DNA of 23,005 nt, from IMG/VR virus record IMGVR_UViG_3300047667_001391; one strand, written 5' to 3'. The stretch is from a virus. Its lineage: Duplodnaviria; Heunggongvirae; Uroviricota; Caudoviricetes. The notes beneath the pieces are model-generated. The model worked only from the letters and a program-made list of their open reading frames with translations. It was not told the origin of the DNA and did not search any database. Position numbers and translations under genes: made by a program. Position 1 is the stretch's first letter. Each line of letters begins with the position of its first letter. This document shows positions 692 to 23,005 of the stretch, piece by piece.

Positions 692-1330
692 ATGAAAGAT
701 AGTCCACAACACATTATTTATGACTTTGAAACGGTCGACACTAAACCGACGTCGGCGGTGGCATCAGTAGCTTTTATTCTCTTTAGACCAGAAGAATTAA
801 AGACATTTGATGAATTGGTGTCGGGTGCATTGAGAATTAAGTTTGACTTAAAAGAACAATTATCTACACTCAATAGAACATTCTCAAAGGAAACCATAGA
901 GTGGTGGAAATCTGAAGAAAATGCAGAGGCATACAAAAAAGTTATCATGCCATCACCACAAGATGTTTCAATTAGATTTTTTAATCAAATTCTGACAAAG
1001 TGGCTGGCTGATAATAAATATGTAGCTAATTGCGGGGAAAAGGTTTGGACTCGTGGTAACAATTTTGATCCTCCAATTTTTGACAATATATACCAGCAGT
1101 TTGGTTGGGAGGCTAACTACCCATGGTGGAATGTAAGAGACGTTCGCACTGAGATAGATGCTGTTGTACCTTATTGGGATGATGAGCACGAAGGTCGCGG
1201 TTATATTAAAGAGTTTCCATATGACGATAAATTTATGAAGCATATGGAAACTCATGATTGTGCTCGTGATATATTAATGATGCAATATGCCCATATTGGG
1301 TTAGCACATAAACTTTCAGGTGAGAGGTAA
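692..1330 (+). CDS. dexA: DEDD-family 3'-5' exonuclease, T4 DexA-like (exonuclease A)
   Basis: Motifs YDFET (ExoI), TFDELVSGALRIKFDLKEQ, TIEWWK, WTRGNNFDPPI (ExoII), WNVRDVRT and HDCARDILMMQYA (ExoIII) closely parallel T4 DexA as recalled. RBS GAGG upstream. Confidence 0.88.
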   Translation: MKDSPQHIIYDFETVDTKPTSAVASVAFILFRPEELKTFDELVSGALRIKFDLKEQLSTLNRTFSKETIEWWKSEENAEAYKKVIMPSPQDVSIRFFNQILTKWLADNKYVANCGEKVWTRGNNFDPPIFDNIYQQFGWEANYPWWNVRDVRTEIDAVVPYWDDEHEGRGYIKEFPYDDKFMKHMETHDCARDILMMQYAHIGLAHKLSGER

Positions 1331-1332
1331 TT

Positions 1333-1695
1333 ATGATAAACGAAAACATGAAAAAGGTTTTGGTTGCCTTACGTTCCGGTGAATATAATCAATCTAAGCT
1401 TAATTTACAGAATATTAGTGGGTATTGTTGTTTGGGTGTTATGTGTGAAGTTTACGAAAAGGAAACAGGAAATACACTTGACCGTGATACTCTTGGAATA
1501 ATAAAAGGATCGGACCTTAGAGACCAAGAACATGTACAAAATTGGGTCGGACTTAGGACATTTATAGGTGAAGTTTTTTTAGACACCAATGAGCTGAATG
1601 CGCAGGACTTAACTATGATGAATGATCACTCAAACAAAACATTCCTAGAAATTGCTGATTTCATTGAATCTGAGCCAGAAGGTTTATTATTATGA
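1333..1695 (+). CDS. conserved phage hypothetical protein, ALRSG-CCLGV family, array copy 1
   Basis: ALRSGEYxQ...CCLGVMC...WxGL...MND...FxEIADFIE, a motif set seen in many phage hypothetical proteins. RBS lies in the 3' end of dexA. Confidence 0.88.
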   Translation: MINENMKKVLVALRSGEYNQSKLNLQNISGYCCLGVMCEVYEKETGNTLDRDTLGIIKGSDLRDQEHVQNWVGLRTFIGEVFLDTNELNAQDLTMMNDHSNKTFLEIADFIESEPEGLLL

Positions 1696-2066
1696 TAAAC
1701 GAAAACATGAAAAAGGTTTTAGTTGCCTTACGTTCCGATGAATATAAACAAACTAAGCTTATGTTACATAACACTGAAGGTCACTGTTGTTTAGGTGTTA
1801 TGTGTGAAGTTTACGAAAAGGAAACAGGAAATACACTTGACCGTGACACAACAGGTTTTATTATTGGGGGAGACCTCGACGACCAAGATAAAGTACAGGA
1901 GTGGGTTGGTCTTAGAACTTCTGAAGGTGATCATCGAATGAAAAGGTATGCTGCTGATAAAGATCCTATTACCAGAGACCTGACCCAATTAAATGACAGC
2001 AGCAATTACAATTTCTTGCATATCGCTGATCACATCGAATCTGAGCCAGAAGGTTTATTATTATGA
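1692..2066 (+). CDS. ALRSG-CCLGV family, array copy 2
   Basis: Paralogue of 1333-1695. ATGA start/stop overlap. Confidence 0.88.
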   Translation: MINENMKKVLVALRSDEYKQTKLMLHNTEGHCCLGVMCEVYEKETGNTLDRDTTGFIIGGDLDDQDKVQEWVGLRTSEGDHRMKRYAADKDPITRDLTQLNDSSNYNFLHIADHIESEPEGLLL

Positions 2067-2410
2067 TAAACGAAAACATGAAAAAGGTTTTAGTTGCCTT
2101 ACGTTCCGGTGAATATAAACAAACTCAAGAATCGTTACAAGATGGGCAAGGGCATTGTTGTTTAGGTGTCATGTGTGATGTCTTCGCGAAAGAGACGGGC
2201 AGTACTCTCAGAACGTTTGATGACACAGGTCACATATACGGGGTCAGCCTTAATGAGCATAATGATGTACAAGAGTGGGCGGGACTCCAGCATTGCACCG
2301 GAGAAAGTCAATTTAAATTTAGCTTAGTGCAGCTAAATGATATTGAGGGTAAAACATTCTCAGAAATCGCTGACTTCATCGAAACTGAGCCAGAAGGATT
2401 ATTAGTATGA
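2063..2410 (+). CDS. ALRSG-CCLGV family, array copy 3
   Basis: Paralogue. ATGA overlap. Confidence 0.88.
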   Translation: MINENMKKVLVALRSGEYKQTQESLQDGQGHCCLGVMCDVFAKETGSTLRTFDDTGHIYGVSLNEHNDVQEWAGLQHCTGESQFKFSLVQLNDIEGKTFSEIADFIETEPEGLLV

Positions 2411-2772
2411 TAAACGAAAACATGAAAAAGGTTTTAGTTGCCTTACGTTCCGGTGAATATAAACAAACTAAGGAAGCACTTCAAAATTCTAGTGGTCACT
2501 GCTGTTTAGGTGTCATGTGTGAGGTCTACGAAAAGGAAACGGGGGATATTATAGACCGGAGAACATCTGGTAATATTATGGGAGGTAATTTAAGTAGGCA
2601 TGAAAAAGTACAGACGTGGGTTGGTCTATTGACATCATCAGGGGATATAACGATTGTCTCGCCAAATAGCTCAAAACATATCTCACTGGCACATATGAAT
2701 GATAGTGAGGGTAAAACATTCTCAGAAATTGCCGATTTTATTGAGTCTGAGCCAAAAGGATTATTAGTATAA
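2407..2772 (+). CDS. ALRSG-CCLGV family, array copy 4
   Basis: Paralogue. ATGA overlap at the start. Ends in TAA with no coupled ATG. Confidence 0.88.
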   Translation: MINENMKKVLVALRSGEYKQTKEALQNSSGHCCLGVMCEVYEKETGDIIDRRTSGNIMGGNLSRHEKVQTWVGLLTSSGDITIVSPNSSKHISLAHMNDSEGKTFSEIADFIESEPKGLLV

Positions 2773-2859: not shown

Positions 2860-3069
2860 ATGAGACAATATGCCGTAACTAAAATAAAAAACAGTGATTG
2901 CGAAAAATTTAAAAATATCCATGTGGGTATGGAAATGGACCAGCAGACGATATCTGAGAATTTTGATGATTGTGATTTGATTTCGTTTAGGTTTCATTAC
3001 GGAAAAAGAACTGTTGTTGTGGGAAATTCATTATCTTTTATTTACTTTACTGAATTAGAGAATTATTAA
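2860..3069 (+). CDS. hypothetical protein (69 aa)
   Basis: ORF with RBS AGGAAG 9 nt upstream. Packed against the next gene. Confidence 0.7.
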   Translation: MRQYAVTKIKNSDCEKFKNIHVGMEMDQQTISENFDDCDLISFRFHYGKRTVVVGNSLSFIYFTELENY

Positions 3070-3070
3070 C

Positions 3071-3571
3071 ATGCAAAATAAATTAAAAATCGCTTCAGAT
3101 TTGGCCGTAAAATTAGGCGCGAACATTAACTTACTTGAGTTACGCGCAGAATCACAAACACTAACACCACACAATACATTAATTACCACATTTTACTATA
3201 ATGATGAATTGTTTGTACACTCCTACTTATATATCAATACTGGTTATTTTGGTACATGTCTGCGCGTAGGCGAAGAACAAGAGGATATAGCGGCATCTGG
3301 TACTATAGAATCTGGTACTATAGAAGCGGCATCTGGTACATCTGGTACTACAGAAACAGTTGATTGGGACTCATTACCAGAGATGGTGACTATTTGGGTT
3401 TACAAGAGCTTGTGGGCAACGGATGGTAAGACATTGGAACGGGTTGCGCATAAATTCGGTGAGTGGTATAGATTAGAAATTGGAGTGCCAGCATCTGGCT
3501 GTAAAAAAATTACATACATGGTACATGAGTCAAGGGTAGATAAAATAATCAAAGCTGGCAAGATTGGATAG
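3071..3571 (+). CDS. hypothetical protein (166 aa) with Ser-Gly-Thr repeat linker
   Basis: Closely packed ORF with internal AASGTIESGTIEAASGTSGTTE. Confidence 0.8.
   Translation: MQNKLKIASDLAVKLGANINLLELRAESQTLTPHNTLITTFYYNDELFVHSYLYINTGYFGTCLRVGEEQEDIAASGTIESGTIEAASGTSGTTETVDWDSLPEMVTIWVYKSLWATDGKTLERVAHKFGEWYRLEIGVPASGCKKITYMVHESRVDKIIKAGKIG
3290..3355 (+). repeat. short in-frame tandem repeats (TCTGGTAC x4)
   Basis: gcggcatctggtactatagaa / tctggtactatagaa / gcggcatctggtaca / tctggtactacagaa. Confidence 0.85.
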
Positions 3572-3851
3572 ATTTCCGTTAATTGAATTAATAGATGCAT
3601 TAGATGATGATTTATGCAATACTCCTCTTGTCGTCAAGGCGATGCCAGCAGAAGGCGAACGAAAATTGTGTTTTTTTCGAGGAGAATGGATAGTGCTTCA
3701 GGTTGATCTTGAGTCCCCAACATTTGAAGAAAACTTTATGCCGTTTTTGTATTGGCGGGAACCGTTTTCGGATACACTTTGCATTGAACACCATGACGTG
3801 TCAACATGGGTAGACTTACCCGAAATACCAACAGAAGAGATAACATTATGA
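3564..3851 (+). CDS. hypothetical protein (95 aa), weak DUF551-like C-terminus
   Basis: Overlaps both neighbours. C-terminal DVSTWVDLPEIP resembles the VTHWxxLPxxP motif. Confidence 0.7.
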   Translation: MDRFPLIELIDALDDDLCNTPLVVKAMPAEGERKLCFFRGEWIVLQVDLESPTFEENFMPFLYWREPFSDTLCIEHHDVSTWVDLPEIPTEEITL

Positions 3852-4264
3852 TGGAAAAAGACCAATTCAAAAAAATGATTACTGATGCAGCTGATAAGTT
3901 GTTTATCCAAAACAAACAAAGTAAGAGAGTGAGCACTTCAGCTGACGGTGCAACTACTATAAAATGTTCATATAGAGGTGATGGTGGTACATGTTGTCCA
4001 GTGGGTTTCATGATGGATGACGAGAGTGCTAGATTGGCAGATCTAGAAACAAATAGTGGCGTGACTGCTATATACAAAAAAGGTATTTGGGGTACGGAAC
4101 TAACGGAGTACCAAGTTGGTATATTATCTCGTTTACAGGCGACACATGATAAGGCAGACAAGGTCAGTATTAGTTTTCAAGTCCAATTCATAGAAAAACT
4201 TAGGATAAATTCTTTGGGGTGGGTAGCTGATTATATTGAAGGAAATAATGATGGCCAAGTATGA
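3848..4264 (+). CDS. conserved phage hypothetical protein (CxYRG...CxVG family); start revised from 3806 to 3848
   Basis: ATGA overlap with the upstream stop at 3848-3851. Motifs KCSYRGDGGTCCPVG and LQATHD. Confidence 0.78.
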   Translation: MMEKDQFKKMITDAADKLFIQNKQSKRVSTSADGATTIKCSYRGDGGTCCPVGFMMDDESARLADLETNSGVTAIYKKGIWGTELTEYQVGILSRLQATHDKADKVSISFQVQFIEKLRINSLGWVADYIEGNNDGQV

Positions 4265-4526
4265 GCCTATTTTTTTATCTGGGAATGGTGGTTACCCCCG
4301 ATCTACATTGCGGGATCGCGTTGCTGCACTCCAAAAAGAAAATAAAGAATATAAGCATAAGGTAGATGTTCTCACTAAGTTAGTTGAAGGATTATGTGAG
4401 ACCGTATCTATTGCAGTGGTCACCATAGAAGGTCACGAGCATGATGATAAAGAATTAATGCTACTTGAAGCTGACCTTACAGAATTAATATCAATGGCCA
4501 ACGATGAAGTTTCATCGTTGTCATAA
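4248..4526 (+). CDS. hypothetical coiled-coil protein; start revised to ATG 4248 (or 4251)
   Basis: RBS GAAGGA precedes ATGATG at 4248. The TTG at 4236 overlaps that RBS. Confidence 0.75.
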   Translation: MMAKYEPIFLSGNGGYPRSTLRDRVAALQKENKEYKHKVDVLTKLVEGLCETVSIAVVTIEGHEHDDKELMLLEADLTELISMANDEVSSLS

Positions 4527-4543
4527 ATTTATAGGATAAAATA

Positions 4544-4834
4544 ATGGAAATATTTACATTGTTCGTCGGTCAATTTTTGATGATTTATGTGTTAGGATTG
4601 CAGTCATTAATGGTTCGAGACAATAACTACATCGGTGCGGCGATAGGTTCTACCCTAATTGGAATCTCGCAGTTTTACTTAACTTCATTGATTGCCGATA
4701 TGGGTTTAGAATCAATTGGCACAATAGCTTGGTATGTTTTTATTATTGCTGGACCACTTGCGATAGTGACCTCGATGAAGACTCATCCGTTTATTGCACA
4801 ATTAACAAAGAAGAAAATCAAAAAAGCAGATTAA
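4544..4834 (+). CDS. small integral membrane protein (~3 TM)
   Basis: Three hydrophobic segments and a basic C-terminal tail. RBS AGGA. Confidence 0.82.
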   Translation: MEIFTLFVGQFLMIYVLGLQSLMVRDNNYIGAAIGSTLIGISQFYLTSLIADMGLESIGTIAWYVFIIAGPLAIVTSMKTHPFIAQLTKKKIKKAD

Positions 4835-4848
4835 TTTGTGGGTTATAC

Positions 4849-4876
4849 TTTACATGATAAATATATTATGTATACT
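4849..4876 (+). promoter_or_regulatory. putative sigma70-type promoter
   Basis: TTTACA-N16-TATACT upstream of the 4914 ORF / ligase operon. Confidence 0.6.
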
Positions 4877-4913
4877 CACCCCATCGAAATAAACAACATA
4901 GTAGGAATACACA

Positions 4914-5255
4914 ATGAGTCTAAAGACTGCAATAGAACAAGAATGCAAGAACTGCACATATGACCAATCGTCTGACGGTAGCTGGAGACAGCAAATCAAA
5001 GGGTGTTGTGGCAGTAAGTGTGAATTGTACAAAGTCCGTCCGTTACCAATTGGGGATAGACATGAAATTCTTTCTAGTCGCCGCAAAGCTGTCGATGCTC
5101 AATGCAAGGCCTGTATATACGATGTGGGTGATTTAGATGCAGTGGGTACATGGAGACAACAAGTTCGAGATTGTAAGTCTACTGGGTGTGGCATATATAA
5201 AGAAAGACCAATGCCTATCTCCAGCAATGAAATACAAATAGTGGAGTTACACTAA
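4914..5255 (+). CDS. Cys-rich protein with two tandem putative Zn-binding domains
   Basis: Two copies of AxxxxCKxCxYD...GxWRQQxxxCxxxxCxxYKxRPxP. RBS AGGA. Confidence 0.82.
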   Translation: MSLKTAIEQECKNCTYDQSSDGSWRQQIKGCCGSKCELYKVRPLPIGDRHEILSSRRKAVDAQCKACIYDVGDLDAVGTWRQQVRDCKSTGCGIYKERPMPISSNEIQIVELH

Positions 5256-12771: not shown

Positions 12772-13107
12772 TTATACTCCACATGGGATTGTTTCTGAAA
12801 ACGACAATGTGCCGTTACATGTTAAAACTCCACTTTCGTTAAATAGTGGGATTGTGTCAACTGATGGACCATCGTGGTTATCTGAATGAACTATGTATGT
12901 ACCTGTAGTAACCACTTCAATTGTAGTATTGGCACCTTTTGCAGAAAAATAAATACCCGATGATGAAAGCGGAATTAATCCGCCGCCATCACCAAACTCT
13001 ATTGTCCCCGTACCAGATATCATCACTACATAAAAAAATGAACGGCGTTTACCACTATTTGGGTGACCAAATAGCTTATTTCCGGTGTACTCATTACTAG
13101 TACTCAT
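12772..13107 (-). CDS. small virion-associated protein, shared 78-aa module plus 33-aa Cys-containing tail
   Basis: 67/78 aa identical to 13148-13390. Homologous to the N-terminus of the 998-aa protein. Confidence 0.85.
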   Translation of the reverse strand: MSTSNEYTGNKLFGHPNSGKRRSFFYVVMISGTGTIEFGDGGGLIPLSSSGIYFSAKGANTTIEVVTTGTYIVHSDNHDGPSVDTIPLFNESGVLTCNGTLSFSETIPCGV

Positions 13108-13147
13108 TATTTTGTGTTTCCTATTTATATATAAAAAAATAAATATT

Positions 13148-13390
13148 TTAGGTTTCGTGGTTATCTGAATGAACTACATATGTTCCGGTGGTTACCACTT
13201 CAATTGTAGTATTGGCACCATCTATCGTTTGATATTCACCATTAATCCCGAGAGGAATTAATCCTCCACCATCACCAAACTCTACTGTCCCAGTACCAGA
13301 TAACATCACCACATAAAAAAATGAACGACGTTTGCCACTATTTGGGTGACCAAATAGTTTATTCCCAGTGTACTCATTACTAGTACTCAT
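13148..13390 (-). CDS. small virion-associated protein, stand-alone 78-aa module
   Basis: RBS GAGGA. Tandem paralogue of 12772-13107. Confidence 0.85.
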   Translation of the reverse strand: MSTSNEYTGNKLFGHPNSGKRRSFFYVVMLSGTGTVEFGDGGGLIPLGINGEYQTIDGANTTIEVVTTGTYVVHSDNHET

Positions 13391-13417
13391 TGTTGTATAT
13401 TCCTCATTGTTTTTATG

Positions 13418-13762: not shown

Positions 13763-16759
13763 TTAGTTTTGTGTTGCTACTATTGTGTTAGATTTGATTG
13801 AGATACCTGCATCGATATCGACGTAATCATCTGGATCTTGCCCTGTAACAATAGTGCCTACATACATCGTAGTTGCAGTAGCTACAAAAGTACTATCTAC
13901 TGAATGAGACCCAGAAGACGAGGTATTAATAGCAAGCTCTACGCCTAATTGCGAAGAAGGAGCTACCCTTAGCCTGACTTCGGCAGCTGGATTGTTACTA
14001 GCTGCGCTCATTAATATCGAATACTCACTACCAATTATCATATTTTGAAGTGCGGATACTGAGCCAAATGTGTCTGTGTTTTTTGCGGTAGCTCTGAGTT
14101 TATTATTCACAGCACTAATAATTGTAGGTTCTGTGGGGGTTCTAGCTGGTGACCAGTCTACAGCACTATCAAATGTGTTATTCGTAATTTCTTCACTGCC
14201 AACATAGACGCCATCGATTAATGTGTTTGTATCACGGTCTTCTAGGGCTATGTTTTCGTATGTTATGTAGTTGGTTACTTCACGTAGCGATATACTTGCC
14301 ACTGTATTTTCCGACGAACTCACAACCCGAATTGCATTGTATGCGATTGAGCTGTTTGTCTTAAGCACCCCTTTGTAAGTACCAGCAAACATTGATGGAC
14401 TTATATTATTACCATCAGATGTTGCGCCTCCTAACTGCAATTGAACCGCCCCTGAGCCACTAACAACAATTGCGTATTCATATGTTGTAGACGGTGTAAG
14501 AGGGCTACCTGTAGTGATTCTCAGCTCAGAACTTCCACCAGTGTGTGTATAACTTCCATCGCCATTGTCTGACCAACCTGTTTGGATTGTCGTAGGAGGA
14601 TTAGCCCACAATTCACTACCGAACACGTTACCAACAGGTAGTTCATACTCTTTAGTCAACTCATTGAGCTTGAATTCTAAAGTGTTAGCCGGAGTAGTTA
14701 GGTCTATTAGATTGGGTCTTGATAGCATGCCGTTGAATTTCCTACCGTGACCACCTCCAATTTCACCACTAAACGTTAGCGCGTCGTTTATTGTTGTGGT
14801 TGTGCCTAGTGGCGTACCGTTTAATCTAGCAGTAATCACACCACCAACTCGCTTAATACTAACTAAGTTGAGTTTTCCGTCTAGTATTCCCGCTTGTCCG
14901 CCGAAAATCTTACGGAAGAAACTACCTGCTCCATCGCTAACTAGAAATTGAAGTCCATCTGGGTTATCAATATATACTAAGACACTATTGGCGGGGGCGA
15001 ATGCTATATCTTCGTCATTTAATGCCATATCACTTGTTAAATGTGTTGAGGATACATAGCAGCTGAACTCGAAATCAGCAAGAGCAACGAAAGGCTTACC
15101 TAATAAAGCATGAGAGTTAGCAGTAGAGTCAAAGTGAAACATTACCACAGTTTCATCGAACAAGTCAGTTATTTGAGATGCTTTATGAATTAACTCTTTA
15201 AACGAAGGCTTACTTAAGGTTGTGTCCACGTATCCAGTAAACCGCTTAAATTGCTGGTTGCCGTCTACTGCCAATTCAGCATCTATGATGAATGGCCCAG
15301 CAGATTCTATTCTCGCACTATCCGTGCCTGTTGCAAAAGCCGTAAGCCCAGTCCCCGTACCACTCAAAGCTTCAACAACACCTTCAAGTCTAGAAAACCT
15401 AGGTTGGTTGCCTCCATACAAAAGCTGCAAAGACGAGAAACTTCCGTCACCTACCATCGACCACTTATTATCTGCAAAGCTCCATATGTCGTCGGGTGAG
15501 TTCTGTGGATTCTCCCATAAATCTTGAGTAAACAAATCGCTACCAATATGCAAGCCAGTAGCTGAGGTGTAAGTATCACGGTCTTCTACGTCTATGTTTT
15601 GGTAGGTTAAGATGTTAGTTACTGATTTAACTGAAATATCATCCCAGTTAATTGTCCCTGCAACACTACACCGTAAATACACGTAACTTGTTGTGCTAAT
15701 AGCTACAAATGATACGAAATGCTCAGATGGTACTGATGTCTCAAATGAGTCGGCTATGCCTGCATCTGCGTATGCTCCGTCACCTACTCTAATTAAATGA
15801 GCAGTAGATGCAATTGTAGATTTACCAGTTATAAGATACCTTTTACCTATTTCTGTTGTAAATACTTGATGTGAACCCCTGCCTGACCCAGCTGAAATAA
15901 TTTCTATTGTTCCATTATCCCAAGATGCAGTTGAAGATCCCTCATCCCAGTTATTAATATTTGTAAAAAAGTTACCGTTAATGGCTAGTTCACTACCGAA
16001 CACGTTACCAACAGGTAGTTCATACTCTTTAGTCAACTCATTGAGCTTGAATTCTAAAGTGTTAGCCGGAGTAGTTAGGTCTATAAAGCTAGGTCTAGAT
16101 ATCAGGCCACCCGAAACCGAGCCACTTTGTAGCCCTATCCCCTCCACATTTAATGCAGTGGTAAGTACAGTTTCAATTGAAACTTCATAACCGTTAATAA
16201 AGATTTGGCCAGTAGCTCCAATTCTCCTTACTCTGATAAAAGAAAACTTATCTACTAGAACTGATCCTGCTAAGGAATCTATACCCGCATCACTTAGAGA
16301 TGTGGGTCTCCAATTTATAGAGCCGTCTGGATTTATCGTTAGTCTCCCATCGTAGTTTGAAAGATTACCCCAAACTCTAATTTCATCACCGATAAAATAT
16401 ACATAGAAACTAATTGAGTAGTCAGCAGCGGCAACCCATGGTGTACCTAATCGGTAATGAGAACCTGCAGTACTATTTAGCTTAATAAATCTTTCTAATA
16501 TTAAAAATGAATAATCAGAACCAAGATGCAAATCAGTAAATACTACATAATCACCAATGGATTCGACGTTTATTTCTGTGTTCATTCCTATGCTGCGAGA
16601 GAAATTTTCTCCACCTATTACAGGAAATTTAAAGCTATCAACACCACCAAATTGGATTGTGGTATCAAGCTCTGTTATTAATTTAAAAAATTTACGGCGT
16701 TGACCACCAACCCCCTTTTCGAATTTTCTACCACCTGTGTATTTTACACTCTTTGACAT
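13763..16759 (-). CDS. large modular beta-sandwich protein (LamG/ConA-like and CBM-like domains), putative virion glycan-binding/decoration protein
   Basis: Two LamG-like segments (FSFIRVRRIGATGQIFING; LNLVSIKRVGGVITARLNG) each followed by the same linker and two CBM-like segments (GSELAINGNFFTNINNW...TTEIGKRYLI). RBS AAGGA. Confidence 0.72.
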   Translation of the reverse strand: MSKSVKYTGGRKFEKGVGGQRRKFFKLITELDTTIQFGGVDSFKFPVIGGENFSRSIGMNTEINVESIGDYVVFTDLHLGSDYSFLILERFIKLNSTAGSHYRLGTPWVAAADYSISFYVYFIGDEIRVWGNLSNYDGRLTINPDGSINWRPTSLSDAGIDSLAGSVLVDKFSFIRVRRIGATGQIFINGYEVSIETVLTTALNVEGIGLQSGSVSGGLISRPSFIDLTTPANTLEFKLNELTKEYELPVGNVFGSELAINGNFFTNINNWDEGSSTASWDNGTIEIISAGSGRGSHQVFTTEIGKRYLITGKSTIASTAHLIRVGDGAYADAGIADSFETSVPSEHFVSFVAISTTSYVYLRCSVAGTINWDDISVKSVTNILTYQNIDVEDRDTYTSATGLHIGSDLFTQDLWENPQNSPDDIWSFADNKWSMVGDGSFSSLQLLYGGNQPRFSRLEGVVEALSGTGTGLTAFATGTDSARIESAGPFIIDAELAVDGNQQFKRFTGYVDTTLSKPSFKELIHKASQITDLFDETVVMFHFDSTANSHALLGKPFVALADFEFSCYVSSTHLTSDMALNDEDIAFAPANSVLVYIDNPDGLQFLVSDGAGSFFRKIFGGQAGILDGKLNLVSIKRVGGVITARLNGTPLGTTTTINDALTFSGEIGGGHGRKFNGMLSRPNLIDLTTPANTLEFKLNELTKEYELPVGNVFGSELWANPPTTIQTGWSDNGDGSYTHTGGSSELRITTGSPLTPSTTYEYAIVVSGSGAVQLQLGGATSDGNNISPSMFAGTYKGVLKTNSSIAYNAIRVVSSSENTVASISLREVTNYITYENIALEDRDTNTLIDGVYVGSEEITNNTFDSAVDWSPARTPTEPTIISAVNNKLRATAKNTDTFGSVSALQNMIIGSEYSILMSAASNNPAAEVRLRVAPSSQLGVELAINTSSSGSHSVDSTFVATATTMYVGTIVTGQDPDDYVDIDAGISIKSNTIVATQN
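14612..14707. repeat. perfect 96-bp direct repeat, copy A
   Basis: Identical to 15989-16084. Encodes IDLTTPANTLEFKLNELTKEYELPVGNVFGSE. Confidence 0.97.
15989..16084. repeat. perfect 96-bp direct repeat, copy B
   Basis: Identical to 14612-14707. Offset 1377 bp = 459 codons. Confidence 0.97.
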
Positions 16760-20095: not shown

Positions 20096-23005
20096 TTATT
20101 CCTCTGTGCTGACTACGCTTAGCGTCTGTGAATTTATATTTAATGTACTGTGATATCTTTGTTGACTGCTAATTGTAAGTCGGTAGTAATAATTACCAGC
20201 AGTGGTATTTGTATCTGTAGTAGTAAATGAGTTGGCCAACCCTTCAGTGACGATACAACCTAACTCAGGTTCTTCGTTCGTAATGGTCGTTCCGGTTAGG
20301 TTATTAGTTATCATATGAGTCCACGTAGAACCATTCGTGCTTCTTTCTAGAGTCATTGTTGCACTGGGTTGCACTGGGTTGGTTGGACAAGAATTACCAC
20401 TACCCGTTGTACTATTTGCAGCAAAACTAAAACTATAAACTACACTATGGTTTGCGCCTGTTGCACTAAAAGGACCAACCACTATAGACGGATTAAGGGT
20501 TTTTAAAGTCGTATTGCCTGCATTTTTATTTAGACCTGCAGACAAAGTGCCACCGAAGTATGCATCGCCGTTTTCTTTTAGAAAGAAAGTCGCATTGGTG
20601 TCTGTTTTGCTGCCCGTCCCAGACCATATCATATACCCCTCTGGTCCCCCGACTTCTGTTCGTCGGCCAGTGTCTGCTGTCCTAACCAAAGCACCGATTA
20701 CCTCCCCACCGATTACCTTTCCTGCCTTCAAGACGCCACTAAATGCCGCGGAATTTTCAACACTATCGAAAGTGATAAACGGGTTGTTGTTGTTATCTAA
20801 AAACTGGGTCTGATCAGTTTTTATTATAATCACACTATTGTTTGGGGTAGCGTCTAGTTGAATAAAACTTAAATTGCCGTTAGCGTCCACTGCCAATTGA
20901 GCGGATGCTCTGTATTCAGCCAACCCGTCGTTTAGGGCAGTAGAAAGTGTTAGTGCGCTGCTGGCGGTACTACCCACACCACCTAACGTAGAAGCTATAT
21001 TACTTATTGCAGTAGCGTTATCATCTGCGTCAATTTCAACAGCATCGATTCTAGTAACTGCAGCAGTAACGTTTGTGTTGGTGTTATCAACTCTTAAATC
21101 GACACTACTTATTGCAGAAGCATTATCATCTGCATCGATTTCAACAGCATCGATTCTAGTGATCGCTGATGTAAGGCTTGTGTTGGTGTTATCAACTCTT
21201 AAATCGACACTACTTATTGCAGAAGCATTATCACTTGCATCGATTTCAACAGCATCGATTCTAGTGATCGCTGATGTAAGGCCTGAATTCGTATCCAGAA
21301 CTTCAAGTTCAAGTTGACTTATCGCAGATGAATTACCATCAATAATTATATTGACCTGAATAATTTCATTGGCGTTAGCGGTCATACCTATGTCATTATT
21401 GCTAACAACAGCAGATAAATTGGTAATTGATTCTGCAATTGCGCCAGTGGGACTAACATCGATATTTAGTTGGCTAATGGCATCAGCGAATATTACATCT
21501 CTATCCAAATCATTCTTTTTGATGTTGGCTATATCAATTTCTGACAATAGAGCAACTAACCCTTCATCCTCTGATTGATCACGTGATGTAATCAAACCAA
21601 AAACGTTATTGGTGATTCGACCACCCACACTATCGATATCAAGCACGGCCTGTTGGATTGAAGTAAAGTTCTCGTCTTGGTTATCAGTTACTGTCTGGGC
21701 TAATGCCGTAATTGTTCCCGTATATCCATCTATAGTAACTTTTGCTTCATTTGCCCTAGTGATAGTTTCATTATCAACTAATAACTGTCTACTGGCTTCC
21801 AGTGCAATTATACTATTTAGACCATCGATAGTTGCTGCGGCGTTACTAAATGTAACAGTATTGTTGTTGTAATCAGTTACTGTGACTCGCTGGGTAATTG
21901 CTCCGTTGTTAGCGTCGATGTCTATTTCGGCTTGGCTCACTCTAGCAGTTATGTTTTGTAAGTCCTGAGTGCTTGCGTCAGCTTTTCCTATTGATATAGA
22001 TGTAATGTCAAATGCATCTGCAGTCGTTGTCCCTAATATTAAGCGCACACCCGTTATAGTACCAGAGTAAGTAAGTAATGATGTAAAATCAATTAATAAT
22101 GTGGTTTGTGTTCCGGTTGGTTCGGTGATATAATTCGAGAAAGTCTCAGTACTTGCATCATCTCTTGTTATAATAACTGATCCGTCCCAGCCATCACCAG
22201 ATGTCCTTTCTAGTGTGACCCGTATTAATTTATTATCTGTTGAGGAATAACCCAATGATGTGTTTTGGATATCACCCAACACGACAGAAATTTTATTGGT
22301 ACTTTCGGTCAAGGTGCCGTTCACTGCCACCCAACCCTGAGCACTATCAAAAAAGTTGAATGAATAAACTGGCTGAAGGGCTGCTAATGACTCACTGACA
22401 ATAGCAGTGGCAGTGGCAGTTATTTGAGCGGGTACTAATAATAACTCGGACGTGAGAACATTTATATCATTATCATTAAGGTCTATTCTTTCAGTCACCG
22501 CTGAAACCTGAGCTTCGACACCATCAATAAGAAATACAGCCTGATTAAACGAATCGTCAATAAAACTAAAGGCTCGATTTGTTATAGTACCAGTTATAGG
22601 ATCGACCAGCACGGTGGCATCAATTAGGATGTCATTGTTCTCCAACCGTAGCCGTAAATCTTCGCGACTCGAAGCATCTTTTGTGATTGCCTGCAGTAAC
22701 TGTAAATCTGAGTCTTCGGTCGTGGAATCGTTTATTTGCAATCGATATGCGATGTTCCTAGCTTCTGAATCGATCAAATCAATGTCAGTAACAATATCGG
22801 TTATGTCACCTTCAACACCAAGCAAAGCCGAGTCGGTTTGTAGCTCATAATCATCTATTTGTTGCTTTGTGTCATTGATACTGGCAACAATATCGGTTAT
22901 GTCACCTTCAACACCAAGCAAAGCCGAGTCGGTTTGTAGCTCATAATCATCTATTTGTTGCTTTGTGTCATTGATACTGGCAACAATATCGGTAGTATCA
23001 AACAT
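20096..23005 (-). CDS. central tail fibre / host-specificity J-like protein (possibly 5'-truncated at the window edge)
   Basis: Long heptad-rich coiled coil with tandem repeats, a CBM-like insert, Gly-rich beta segments (FFLKENGDAYFGGTLSAG) and a C-terminal beta-sandwich. The ATG coincides with the window end, so no RBS is visible. Confidence 0.72.
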   Translation of the reverse strand: MFDTTDIVASINDTKQQIDDYELQTDSALLGVEGDITDIVASINDTKQQIDDYELQTDSALLGVEGDITDIVTDIDLIDSEARNIAYRLQINDSTTEDSDLQLLQAITKDASSREDLRLRLENNDILIDATVLVDPITGTITNRAFSFIDDSFNQAVFLIDGVEAQVSAVTERIDLNDNDINVLTSELLLVPAQITATATAIVSESLAALQPVYSFNFFDSAQGWVAVNGTLTESTNKISVVLGDIQNTSLGYSSTDNKLIRVTLERTSGDGWDGSVIITRDDASTETFSNYITEPTGTQTTLLIDFTSLLTYSGTITGVRLILGTTTADAFDITSISIGKADASTQDLQNITARVSQAEIDIDANNGAITQRVTVTDYNNNTVTFSNAAATIDGLNSIIALEASRQLLVDNETITRANEAKVTIDGYTGTITALAQTVTDNQDENFTSIQQAVLDIDSVGGRITNNVFGLITSRDQSEDEGLVALLSEIDIANIKKNDLDRDVIFADAISQLNIDVSPTGAIAESITNLSAVVSNNDIGMTANANEIIQVNIIIDGNSSAISQLELEVLDTNSGLTSAITRIDAVEIDASDNASAISSVDLRVDNTNTSLTSAITRIDAVEIDADDNASAISSVDLRVDNTNTNVTAAVTRIDAVEIDADDNATAISNIASTLGGVGSTASSALTLSTALNDGLAEYRASAQLAVDANGNLSFIQLDATPNNSVIIIKTDQTQFLDNNNNPFITFDSVENSAAFSGVLKAGKVIGGEVIGALVRTADTGRRTEVGGPEGYMIWSGTGSKTDTNATFFLKENGDAYFGGTLSAGLNKNAGNTTLKTLNPSIVVGPFSATGANHSVVYSFSFAANSTTGSGNSCPTNPVQPSATMTLERSTNGSTWTHMITNNLTGTTITNEEPELGCIVTEGLANSFTTTDTNTTAGNYYYRLTISSQQRYHSTLNINSQTLSVVSTEE
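21001..21281. repeat. 105-bp (35-aa) tandem repeat, ~2.7 units
   Basis: TACTTATTGCAG recurs at 21001, 21106 and 21211. Unit TSAITRIDAVEIDAxDNASAISSVDLRVDNTNTSL. Confidence 0.93.
22790..22993. repeat. perfect 96-bp (32-aa) tandem repeat, 2.1 units
   Basis: 22790-22885 is identical to 22886-22981. A third partial unit runs to 22993. Confidence 0.97.

What the first reader, a model, noticed from the sequence alone, without database searches (positions are those of the whole stretch)
1333..2772. Four-gene cassette array with homogenised junctions and hypervariable middles (candidate diversifying effector / anti-defence accordion)
Seen: four head-to-tail paralogues, each chained to the next by an ATGA overlap. 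The junction DNA is nearly identical even at silent sites: 72 identical nt across junctions 1/2 and 2/3, and the first 63 nt identical in copies 3 and 4. Three internal windows differ in sequence, and two of them also in length: after Y-x-Q, after KETG, and especially between W-x-GL and L-x-x-x-ND. Shared blocks are patchy (copies 1+2 share 53 nt internally; copies 3+4 share TGAGGGTAAAACATTCTCAGAAAT), which looks like recombination or gene conversion. The last copy ends GTATAA instead of GTATGA, which removes the coupled ATG. Known: I recognise the ALRSG..CCLGV..LND..IAD motif family from phage genomes, mostly as single genes of unknown function. Inference: a conserved Cys-containing scaffold displays variable surface loops, and the junction repeats let units be gained, lost or swapped in frame while staying translationally coupled. 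This pattern is expected of host-interaction or counter-defence gene families, comparable to the T-even internal-protein locus.
Basis: partly seen in the sequence, partly recalled or inferred. Interest (0 to 1): 0.78.

Follow-up and report, generated by a model that had tools for sequence, protein, structure and literature searches.

The report
Four-copy DUF8296 phage gene array
An uncultured marine or ice phage carries four back-to-back, diverged copies of a very common but unstudied small phage protein (Pfam DUF8296); recombination keeps the gene starts alike while whole copies come and go between related phages, and what the proteins do is still unknown.

Summary
Four head-to-tail ORFs (1333-2772, + strand) are joined by ATGA overlaps, directly behind a DexA-type exonuclease gene. 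The 72-nt, 63-nt, 53-nt and 24-nt identical blocks are all present.

The genes belong to Pfam PF26948 (DUF8296) / PHROG 18067. This is a huge family (47,617 clusters at 50% identity) of unknown function, found almost only in phages. This scan has already reported DUF8296 arrays in at least 10 genomes, including an eight-copy array 9.2 kb upstream in this same genome.

New here:
- **Concerted evolution, confined to the first 63 nt.** Silent divergence between paralogues is 0.04 there. It is 0.71 in an equally protein-conserved core. Orthologues in other genomes differ at those same silent sites.
- **Cassette turnover at the dexA locus.** Relatives carry 4, 3, 3 or 1 copies with different unit types, and types move between the genome's two arrays.
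- **Near-neutral variable windows.** Between orthologues pN/pS is about 0.9 in the windows and 0.34 in the cores. Diversifying selection is neither shown nor excluded.

The AF2 model is very confident (pLDDT 96) but matches no solved fold. Function stays inferred: a constant polar site flanked by three variable loops, probably an early accessory binder or enzyme. This is an ordinary member of a catalogued but uncharacterised kind.

The parts
692..1330 (+). DexA-type 3'-5' exonuclease gene, 2 nt upstream of the array; probably the same transcription unit
   Evidence: Pfam PF16473 E 1.2e-19. PHROG 255 exonuclease E 1e-41. 39-42% identical to annotated DexA of Vibrio phage henriette 12B8 and T4-like phages.
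1333..1695 (+). DUF8296 copy 1 (120 aa); a diverged B-like unit with no clear orthologue in the relatives examined
   Evidence: PHROG 18067 E 6e-17. Identical protein P0005 carries a precomputed PF26948 tag. Groups loosely with the B-type clade.
1692..2066 (+). DUF8296 copy 2 (124 aa), type B; orthologues are L003 copy 2 and a unit in the other (dCMP-deaminase-adjacent) array of L004
   Evidence: PHROG 18067 E 6e-17; tree; orthologue silent divergence 0-0.12 in the middle.
2063..2410 (+). DUF8296 copy 3 (115 aa), type C; a singleton with no orthologue among the relatives fetched
   Evidence: PHROG 18067 E 4e-18; P0018 tagged PF26948; tree.
2407..2772 (+). DUF8296 copy 4 (121 aa), type D; the terminal unit, conserved as last unit in L003 and L086/L087; ends TAA, not TGA
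   Evidence: PHROG 18067 E 4e-20; P0001 tagged PF26948; clade support 95/95; AF2 pLDDT 96.2.
1666..1737 (+). 72-nt junction repeat (junction 1/2), identical to 2037-2108 (junction 2/3); contains the SD-like GAAGG, the ATGA overlap and the first 46 nt of the next gene
2407..2469 (+). 5' homogenised segment (codons 1-21). The same segment lies at 1333-1395, 1692-1754 and 2063-2125. It differs at 0-3 of 63 nt between the four copies (one of them a silent change in copy 1); silent divergence is 0.04
1435..1487 (+). 53-nt block identical to 1794-1846 (copies 1 and 2); a conversion tract or shared ancestry across the CCLGV core
2629..2685 (+). Variable window V3 of copy 4 (residues 75-93), predicted as a beta-hairpin. 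V1 is residues 21-29 (2467-2493) and V2 is residues 47-65 (2545-2601)
   Evidence: Entropy and indel profile; secondary structure of the model.

Best explanation
The locus is an accessory operon of four old, intact paralogues of the phage protein family DUF8296. It is packed directly behind dexA and is read by translational coupling: ATGA overlaps, with an SD-like GAAGG/AAGGA inside the conserved C-terminal EPEGLL codons.

**Evolution (shown, about 0.85).** The conserved gene ends act as roughly 60-70-nt direct repeats, one unit apart.
- Homologous recombination between them homogenises the first 63 nt within a genome.
- It also adds, deletes and swaps whole units or segments in frame, both within this array and between it and the genome's second DUF8296 array.
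- As a result, related phages carry different numbers and types of unit at the same spot.

**Protein (inferred, about 0.35).** Each protein is a compact alpha/beta domain of a fold with no solved relative. It has an invariant polar set (Arg14, Cys32, Asn98, Asp99, plus near-invariant Ser15, Tyr18, Gln20, Cys33, Asp110, Glu113). Each of the three variable segments adjoins a conserved block, and V1 and V3 directly precede invariant residues of this set. The most likely reading is one constant binding or catalytic site with unit-specific specificity loops. On this reading the array is a repertoire of early proteins, each aimed at a different variant of a host or competitor target (host takeover or counter-defence).
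For: Anatomy:
- Searches give the ORFs, overlaps and identical blocks.
- Family assignment: PF26948 tags on the identical proteins and on relatives; PHROG 18067 at E 1e-17 to 1e-20; Atlas cluster 'DUF8296 98%' at TM 0.79.

Concerted evolution:
- Paralogue pS is 0.042 in codons 1-21, against 0.71 in the CCLGV core. The two regions are equally conserved as protein (pN 0.029 vs 0.049).
- Orthologues in other genomes differ at silent sites in that same 5' segment (pS 0.40-0.49) but hardly in the middle (0-0.12).
- All four window copies share C15, G24 and C45, where all copies of L003 and L086 share T15, A24 and T45.
- In the quartet W2, W4, L003-2, L003-3, the first 4 informative sites group by genome. 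Of the remaining 97, 93 group by orthology and none by genome. The chance of that ordering is about 2e-7 (my calculation, 1/C(101,4)).
- Codon-column test: p = 1e-5.

Turnover:
- Unit types at the dexA locus are [B', B, C, D] in the window, [E, B, D] in L003, [E, E', D] in L086/L087 and [E] in L004.
- Flanks are 75-90% identical.
- Type B sits in the other array in L004. A type E protein (P0015) is listed on an 87,005-bp contig, as are the window's own proteins.
- L084 holds an internally deleted 82-aa copy.

Selection:
- Core1 pN/pS is 0.07 between paralogues.
- Between orthologues, core2 plus C-terminus is 0.34 and V2+V3 is 0.89 (Fisher p = 0.001).

Protein:
- pLDDT 96.2, pTM 0.90.
- Invariant polar residues.
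- Variable windows and indels sit at residues 21-29, 47-65 and 75-93.

Generality:
- At least 26 of 83 loci hold 2-6 copies.
- Cultured Synechococcus phage B23 has four copies with the same conserved-start, variable-middle layout.
Against: - No functional evidence of any kind. There is no match in PADLOC, the local Pfam, PDB sequences or PDB folds: best Foldseek E 0.35 and best VIA Z 3.4.
- pN/pS in the variable windows is not above 1, so relaxed constraint explains them as well as diversifying selection does.
- The 5' homogenisation is strong in this array and in the L004 dcd array (p = 0.002). It is weak or absent in L003, L086 and L084, so it is episodic rather than a fixed property.
- The relatives compared are at species or genus level (75-90% identity). 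No population-level copy-number variation was shown.
- Clustering of the variable windows around the conserved site is inferred from sequence adjacency only.
Confidence: 0.55

Rival explanations
1. The proteins are small enzymes that use the invariant Cys32 as nucleophile. Cys32 sits at the N-terminus of helix 2, with Arg14, Asn98 and Asp99 as helpers. The variable loops set substrate specificity. On this reading the array is a set of isoenzymes acting on nucleotides, nucleic acids or host proteins, next to other nucleotide and DNA enzymes (DexA, dCMP deaminase, ligase).
For: - About ten invariant or near-invariant polar residues in a 120-aa domain.
- Cys32 directly precedes helix 33-45.
- The arrays sit beside DexA and dCMP deaminase genes in several relatives.
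Against: - No conserved His.
- No fold or sequence similarity to any known Cys enzyme. The weak NlpC/P60 rows have TM 0.23-0.31 and rmsd of about 10-11 A.
- Neighbours differ in other phages, for example primase-helicase in L001 and L088.
Confidence: 0.2
2. The neighbouring paralogues are subunits or modules that work together. Translational coupling would give matched amounts, and the products would assemble into a hetero-oligomer or act as a multi-domain unit.
For: - ATGA coupling at every junction.
- Many family members are single polypeptides with 2-3 DUF8296 domains: P0114, and about 30 of the top 150 representatives.
Against: - Copy number at the same locus ranges from 1 to 4, and 4 to 8 in the other array. 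Unit types are swapped freely.
- Many phages have a single copy.
- Both facts argue against a fixed stoichiometric complex.
Confidence: 0.12
3. The array has no specific adaptive role. Duplicates arise easily by recombination between the conserved ends and then drift, and the variable windows simply reflect relaxed constraint on surface loops of a dispensable protein.
For: - pN/pS of about 0.9 in V2+V3.
- A decayed 82-aa copy in L084.
- The array is absent from the closest cultured relative at this locus, Vibrio phage henriette.
Against: - All four ORFs are intact although silent sites are saturated.
- The cores are under clear purifying selection: 0.07 between paralogues and 0.34 between orthologues.
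- The family persists in 47,617 clusters (50% identity) from many habitats (habitats) and in phages of hosts from several bacterial phyla.
Confidence: 0.13

Closest known systems
Pfam PF26948 (DUF8296) / PHROG phrog_18067
   Same: - The same family by sequence. The identical proteins carry precomputed PF26948 tags, and PHROG 18067 matches at E 1e-17 to 1e-20.
- The same motifs: ALRSGxYxQ, CCLGV, WxGL, LxxxND, FxxIADxIE.
- The same predicted fold (Atlas TM 0.79).
- Tandem multi-copy layout is common in the family.
   Different: Nothing categorical. This array stands out only for its strong, 5'-restricted homogenisation and for being one of two arrays in one genome. The family has no known function, and no paper names it.
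T-even phage internal-protein (ip) locus
   Same: Small accessory genes in a row with conserved 5' ends and variable bodies. Content differs between related phages through recombination at the conserved ends (from my own knowledge of the T-even literature, not tested here).
   Different: No sequence relation. The conserved N-terminus here is helix 1 of the folded domain and carries invariant Arg14. It is not a cleavable capsid-targeting leader. There is no evidence of packaging into the virion.
Gene accordions (poxvirus K3L-type amplification)
   Same: Copy number changes by recombination between direct repeats at a host-interaction-type locus.
   Different: Accordions are recent, near-identical amplifications. 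These copies are old: silent divergence is 0.6-0.8 outside the 5' end and protein identity is 59-69%. No population-level copy-number variation was shown.
Diversity-generating retroelements
   Same: A conserved scaffold with localised variable segments in phage accessory proteins.
   Different: No reverse transcriptase was found among the ORFs scanned, and there is no template/variable repeat pair. The variation includes indels and whole-segment swaps.

Membership tests
Pfam PF26948 (DUF8296) | Significant match to the family HMM | tested here: met
   The local Pfam copy lacks this model (0 hits). The database's precomputed Pfam column gives PF26948 for proteins identical to copies 1, 3 and 4 (P0005, P0018, P0001; identities checked). 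Copy 2's closest relative, L003 copy 2 (P0025), carries the tag too. A profile built from tagged members scores all four copies at E 1e-64 to 1e-68.
Pfam PF26948 (DUF8296) | Family motifs and invariant residues (Arg14, Cys32, Gly35, Asn98, Asp99) | tested here: met
   All are present in all four copies.
Pfam PF26948 (DUF8296) | Same predicted fold as family members | tested here: met
   AF2 model at pLDDT 96.2. Best Atlas match is a cluster with 98% DUF8296 members, TM 0.79 over 110 residues.
PHROG phrog_18067 | HMM match over the full length | tested here: met
   E 6e-17 to 4e-20, profile positions 1-127 of 129.
T-even internal proteins | Sequence homology to IPI/IPII/IPIII | tested here: not met
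   No such PHROG or Pfam match. The only family hit is PHROG 18067.
T-even internal proteins | Cleavable N-terminal capsid-targeting sequence and packaging in the head | not testable with these tools
   The N-terminus is predicted as a confident helix within the fold, which argues against a leader. Cleavage and packaging need experiments.
Diversity-generating retroelement target | Nearby reverse transcriptase and template repeat matching the variable region | tested here: not met
   No RT among the scanned ORFs. The only repeats of the variable regions are the paralogues themselves.
Known anti-defence or defence protein families (PADLOC-DB) | HMM match | tested here: not met
   Only chance-level rows (E 0.017-0.042). 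PADLOC holds defence proteins, not anti-defence proteins, so this is a weak test.
Cysteine peptidase, NlpC/P60-like | Papain-like fold with a Cys-His dyad | tested here: inconclusive
   Weak Foldseek rows to MepS/Spr (E 0.35-1.7, TM 0.23-0.31, rmsd about 10-11 A). VIA gives Z 2.1-2.8. There is no conserved His.

The most novel reading that the evidence does not exclude
DUF8296 arrays are a phage-encoded combinatorial repertoire. One constant binding or catalytic pocket is flanked by three loop cassettes. Segmental gene conversion within and between arrays reshuffles these cassettes, so a single phage carries a dozen specificities against variable host targets such as defence proteins. This would be a recombination-based diversification system in one of the largest uncharacterised phage protein families.
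Probability: 0.15. Interest if true: 0.8.

Novelty: new member of a known kind. Interest (0 to 1): 0.38.

Why it matters
DUF8296 is one of the largest phage-specific families with no known function. A profile search found 47,617 clusters at 50% identity, and no paper in the library names it. It has a confidently predicted fold with no solved relative.

This locus gives a clean, quantified example of how such arrays evolve. Gene conversion is confined to the first 63 nt, whole-unit turnover occurs at a fixed genomic spot, and units are exchanged between two arrays.

It also points to cultured phages in which the function could be tested: Synechococcus phages B3 and B23 with four copies, Ralstonia phage RSP15, and Alteromonas AD45 phages with one. 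As a discovery it is incremental, because the scan has already reported the same family and layout in at least ten genomes, including this one.

Tried and rejected
- **Near-identical DNA in cultured phages:** none.
- **Whole genome of the window:** not held. Exact-protein look-ups of P0015 and P0001 found no record, so the second array of this genome could not be read directly.
- **IMG/VR scan:** gave only two loci, both in other genomic contexts.
- **Local Pfam:** lacks PF26948.
- **PADLOC:** chance-level rows only.
- **PDB:** the sequence profile gave nothing below E 1. Foldseek PDB best E was 0.35, and VIA-align wide best Z was 3.4. BFVD returned only uncharacterised phage proteins. Atlas feature search outside the family gave a best score of 0.78, below the lead threshold.
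- **Longer (fused) relatives:** only self-fusions or unknown extensions, with no informative partner domain.
- **Homodimer prediction for copy 4:** no support (score 0.00). This is not evidence either way.
- **Sequencing runs:** no RNA holder is listed. The runs are kept as contigs only. In two ice-metagenome runs every unique middle of the four copies is present at about the depth of the flanks, but contigs break at the repeats. The few joints look like other paralogues, so copy-number polymorphism could neither be shown nor excluded.
- **RNA structure at the junctions:** z-scores from -1.0 to +0.8, so no sign of a structured element.
- **Promoter/terminator scan:** promoter-like hits at shuffle level and no terminators.
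- **ORF 3806-4264:** it has CCPVG and VADYIE motifs in the same order as the family. It is not demonstrably related: HMM E 0.097 and hhalign probability 2-4%.
- **DGR, accordion and internal-protein readings:** considered and rejected as memberships (see membership tests).
- **Mapping variable windows on the 3D model:** not possible, because model coordinates are not exposed.
Full report
**1. Observation**

The window holds four + strand ORFs: 1333-1695 (120 aa), 1692-2066 (124 aa), 2063-2410 (115 aa) and 2407-2772 (121 aa). Each is joined to the next by an ATGA overlap. The last ends TAA (GTATAA). The first starts 2 nt after the stop of a DexA-type exonuclease gene at 692-1330. That gene matches Pfam PF16473 at E 1e-19 and PHROG 255 at E 1e-41, and is 39-42% identical to annotated DexA proteins.

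Protein identity to copy 1 is 59-69%.
- a 72-nt identical run across junctions 1/2 and 2/3 (1666-1737 = 2037-2108);
- the first 63 nt identical in copies 3 and 4;
- a 53-nt internal block shared by copies 1 and 2 (1435-1487 = 1794-1846);
- the 24-mer shared by copies 3 and 4 (2344-2367 = 2706-2729).

An HMM scan of all six frames found no further copy in the window.

**2. Identity**

PHROG 18067 (unknown function) matches all four copies over its full length, at E 6e-17 to 4e-20. The large protein database tags the identical proteins and all 113 homologues with PF26948. The contig tables name this DUF8296. My local Pfam copy lacks the model.

A profile of 111 members finds 47,617 clusters at 50% identity with E <= 0.001, and 37,222 with E <= 1e-10. 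Only about 13 of 50,697 cultured-phage records carry the family. They are Synechococcus phages B3 and B23, Alteromonas AD45 phages, Ralstonia RSP15, Alishewanella Slicko01, Bradyrhizobium ppBjS10J-1, Tunturiibacter Tunturi_3 and two partial Stenotrophomonas hits. No paper in the library mentions DUF8296, PF26948 or the PHROG.

This scan has already filed DUF8296 arrays from at least 10 genomes. One is an eight-copy array 9.2 kb before this window in the same genome. Consistent with that, five further family proteins (P0015, P0030, P0035, P0038, P0062) are listed on an 87,005-bp contig, as are the window's own proteins.

**3. The phage**

The nearest cultured relatives, by ligase and DexA, are the roughly 100-kb Vibrio phages henriette 12B8, 2.058.O and V6Aob, at 34-42% amino-acid identity. 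Henriette has no DUF8296 gene behind dexA. The DNA is found in ice-metagenome runs. The window also encodes an ATP-dependent DNA ligase, a metallophosphoesterase, a lysozyme-like protein and large tail proteins.

**4. Relatives at the same locus**

Four metagenomic relatives share the synteny dexA - array - ... - ligase, with flanks 75-90% identical. A tree of the middle and C-terminal columns defines unit types.

| Locus | Units behind dexA | Copies |
|---|---|---|
| Window | B', B, C, D | 4 |
| L003 | E, B, D | 3 |
| L086 / L087 | E, E', D | 3 |
| L004 | E | 1 |

- Type D is the conserved terminal unit (support 95/95).
- Type C has no orthologue in the relatives fetched.
- L004 and L084 also carry a second array behind a dCMP deaminase gene, with 4 and 6 units.
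- Type B sits in that second array in L004.
- Type E (P0015) appears to sit in this genome's second array.
- L084 holds an internally deleted 82-aa copy.

Units are therefore gained, lost, duplicated and moved between arrays.

Arrays are general in the family. At least 26 of 83 fetched loci have 2-6 copies, although many contigs are short. Cultured Synechococcus phage B23 has four copies (gp84, 85, 86, 88) with the same conserved-start, variable-middle layout. Many representatives are single polypeptides with 2-3 domains.

**5. Homogenised ends: gene conversion, not constraint**

With a codon alignment and Nei-Gojobori counts, silent divergence between the four paralogues is as follows:

| Region | pS | pN |
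|---|---|---|
| Codons 1-21 | 0.042 | 0.029 |
| CCLGV core | 0.71 | 0.049 |
| Other regions | 0.59-0.82 | - |

The core is a matched control. It is just as conserved as protein but saturated at silent sites. Counting amino-acid-invariant degenerate codon columns, 15 of 16 in codons 1-21 use one codon in all four copies. In the rest of the gene the figure is 10 of 36 (p = 1e-5).

Nucleotide-level selection is unlikely, for four reasons:
- Orthologues in other genomes differ at silent sites in that very segment (pS 0.40-0.49), while their middles are nearly identical (0-0.12).
- Orthologue sets show no excess codon identity at the 5' end.
- The silent states are genome-specific. All window copies share C15, G24 and C45, where all L003 and L086 copies share T15, A24 and T45.
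- In the quartet (window copies 2 and 4, L003 copies 2 and 3), the first four informative sites group the sequences by genome. Of the remaining 97, 93 group by orthology and none by genome. By my calculation, the chance that the only four 'genome' sites are the first four of 101 is about 2e-7.

Other quartets show further switches at the conserved blocks, with V1 and core1 grouping differently from V2-V3. The units are therefore mosaics.

RNA folding of the junctions shows no unusual structure (z from -1.0 to +0.8). The effect is strong here and in the L004 dcd array (p = 0.002). It is weak in L003, L086 and L084, so conversion is episodic.

On the 3' side only copies 1 and 2 share a long identical tail (30 nt, of which 26 precede the next gene's start codon). 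The C-terminus otherwise follows orthology.

**6. Selection on the variable windows**

Residues 21-29, 47-65 and 75-93 have entropy 2.6-3.3 bits, against 1.1-1.4 bits elsewhere.

Between paralogues the windows are saturated (pN 0.43-0.58). Summed over six orthologue pairs, V2+V3 give pN/pS 0.89, which does not differ from neutrality (binomial p 0.3-0.76). Core2 plus C-terminus give 0.34 (Fisher p = 0.001). Individual close pairs reach 1.2-2.0, but on very few changes. The middles are therefore not under plain purifying selection, but diversifying selection is not demonstrated.

**7. Protein**

AlphaFold2 with the 111-row alignment gives pLDDT 96.2 and pTM 0.90. The order of elements is:
- helix 4-14;
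- a small hairpin (V1);
- Cys32 at the start of helix 33-45;
- a loop (V2);
- helix 66-72;
- a beta-hairpin 80-93 (V3);
- helices 94-99 and 105-114.

Invariant residues are Leu13, Arg14, Cys32, Gly35, Asn98, Asp99 and Ala109. Near-invariant polar residues are Ser15, Tyr18, Gln20, Cys33, Asp110 and Glu113.

No solved structure matches. The best Foldseek E is 0.35, the best VIA Z is 3.4, and the PDB profile search is empty. Predicted-structure libraries return only DUF8296 or unnamed phage clusters.

So many conserved polar residues in 120 aa suggest a constant ligand or catalytic site. V1 ends just before the invariant Cys32, V3 ends just before Leu94 and the invariant Asn98/Asp99, and V2 starts right after helix 2. 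This suggests specificity loops around that site.

**8. Mechanism and verdict**

- **Shown:** a tightly packed, translationally coupled four-gene array of old DUF8296 paralogues.
- **Shown:** within-genome gene conversion of the first 63 nt.
- **Shown:** unit turnover, and exchange between two arrays in related phages.
- **Shown:** purifying selection on the cores and near-neutral evolution of the loops.
- **Inferred:** recombination between the 60-70-nt end repeats is the engine of in-frame gain, loss and swap.
- **Inferred:** the proteins are constant-site, variable-loop modules used early in infection.

Rivals are a Cys enzyme family, co-operating subunits and neutral drift. They are listed with their tests.

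Noticed in passing
window 3806-4264 (+): A 152-aa ORF about 1 kb downstream of the array has a GGTCCPVGFMMDD motif and a C-terminal VADYIEGN motif, in the same order as the DUF8296 CCLGV and IADFIE motifs. Relatedness is not supported: HMM E 0.097 and hhalign probability 2-4%. Only three homologues were found, all in the same phage group.
   Followed up: yes
window 22790-22981 (gene on - strand, 20096-23005): A perfect 96-nt tandem duplication (2 x 32 codons) lies inside a large tail-protein gene. Three 105-nt repeats (71-87% identical) lie at 20992-21340 in the same gene.
   Followed up: no
window 12872-13408 (- strand): Two repeat pairs, 88-91% identical and spaced 283 nt apart (12872-12936 with 13155-13219; 12968-13125 with 13251-13408), partly overlap the 111-aa ORF 12772-13107. 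This looks like a recent tandem duplication.
   Followed up: no
window 13763-16759 (- strand): The 998-aa ORF has no Pfam or PHROG match. It contains an internal duplication with a period of about 1344-1377 nt (blocks 74-93% identical).
   Followed up: no
L084 2679-2927: The first unit of the dCMP-deaminase-adjacent array is an 82-aa copy with two internal deletions that remove the CCLGV core. It keeps the conserved start and end, so it is a decaying or recombinant unit.
   Followed up: partly
L089 (Synechococcus phage B23, MN695335.1) 3001-4931: The cultured cyanophage B23, and B3, carry four DUF8296 genes (gp84, 85, 86, 88), interrupted by one unrelated gene (gp87). Their 5' ends are near-identical. 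This is a tractable system for testing function.
   Followed up: partly
P0114, P0120-P0145 (protein database): Many family members are single polypeptides with two or three DUF8296 domains, 225-377 aa long.
   Followed up: partly
L003 7015-7266 and L086 8129-8380: An 83-aa PP-binding (acyl-carrier-like) gene directly follows the DNA ligase gene in the relatives. It was not checked in the window.
   Followed up: no
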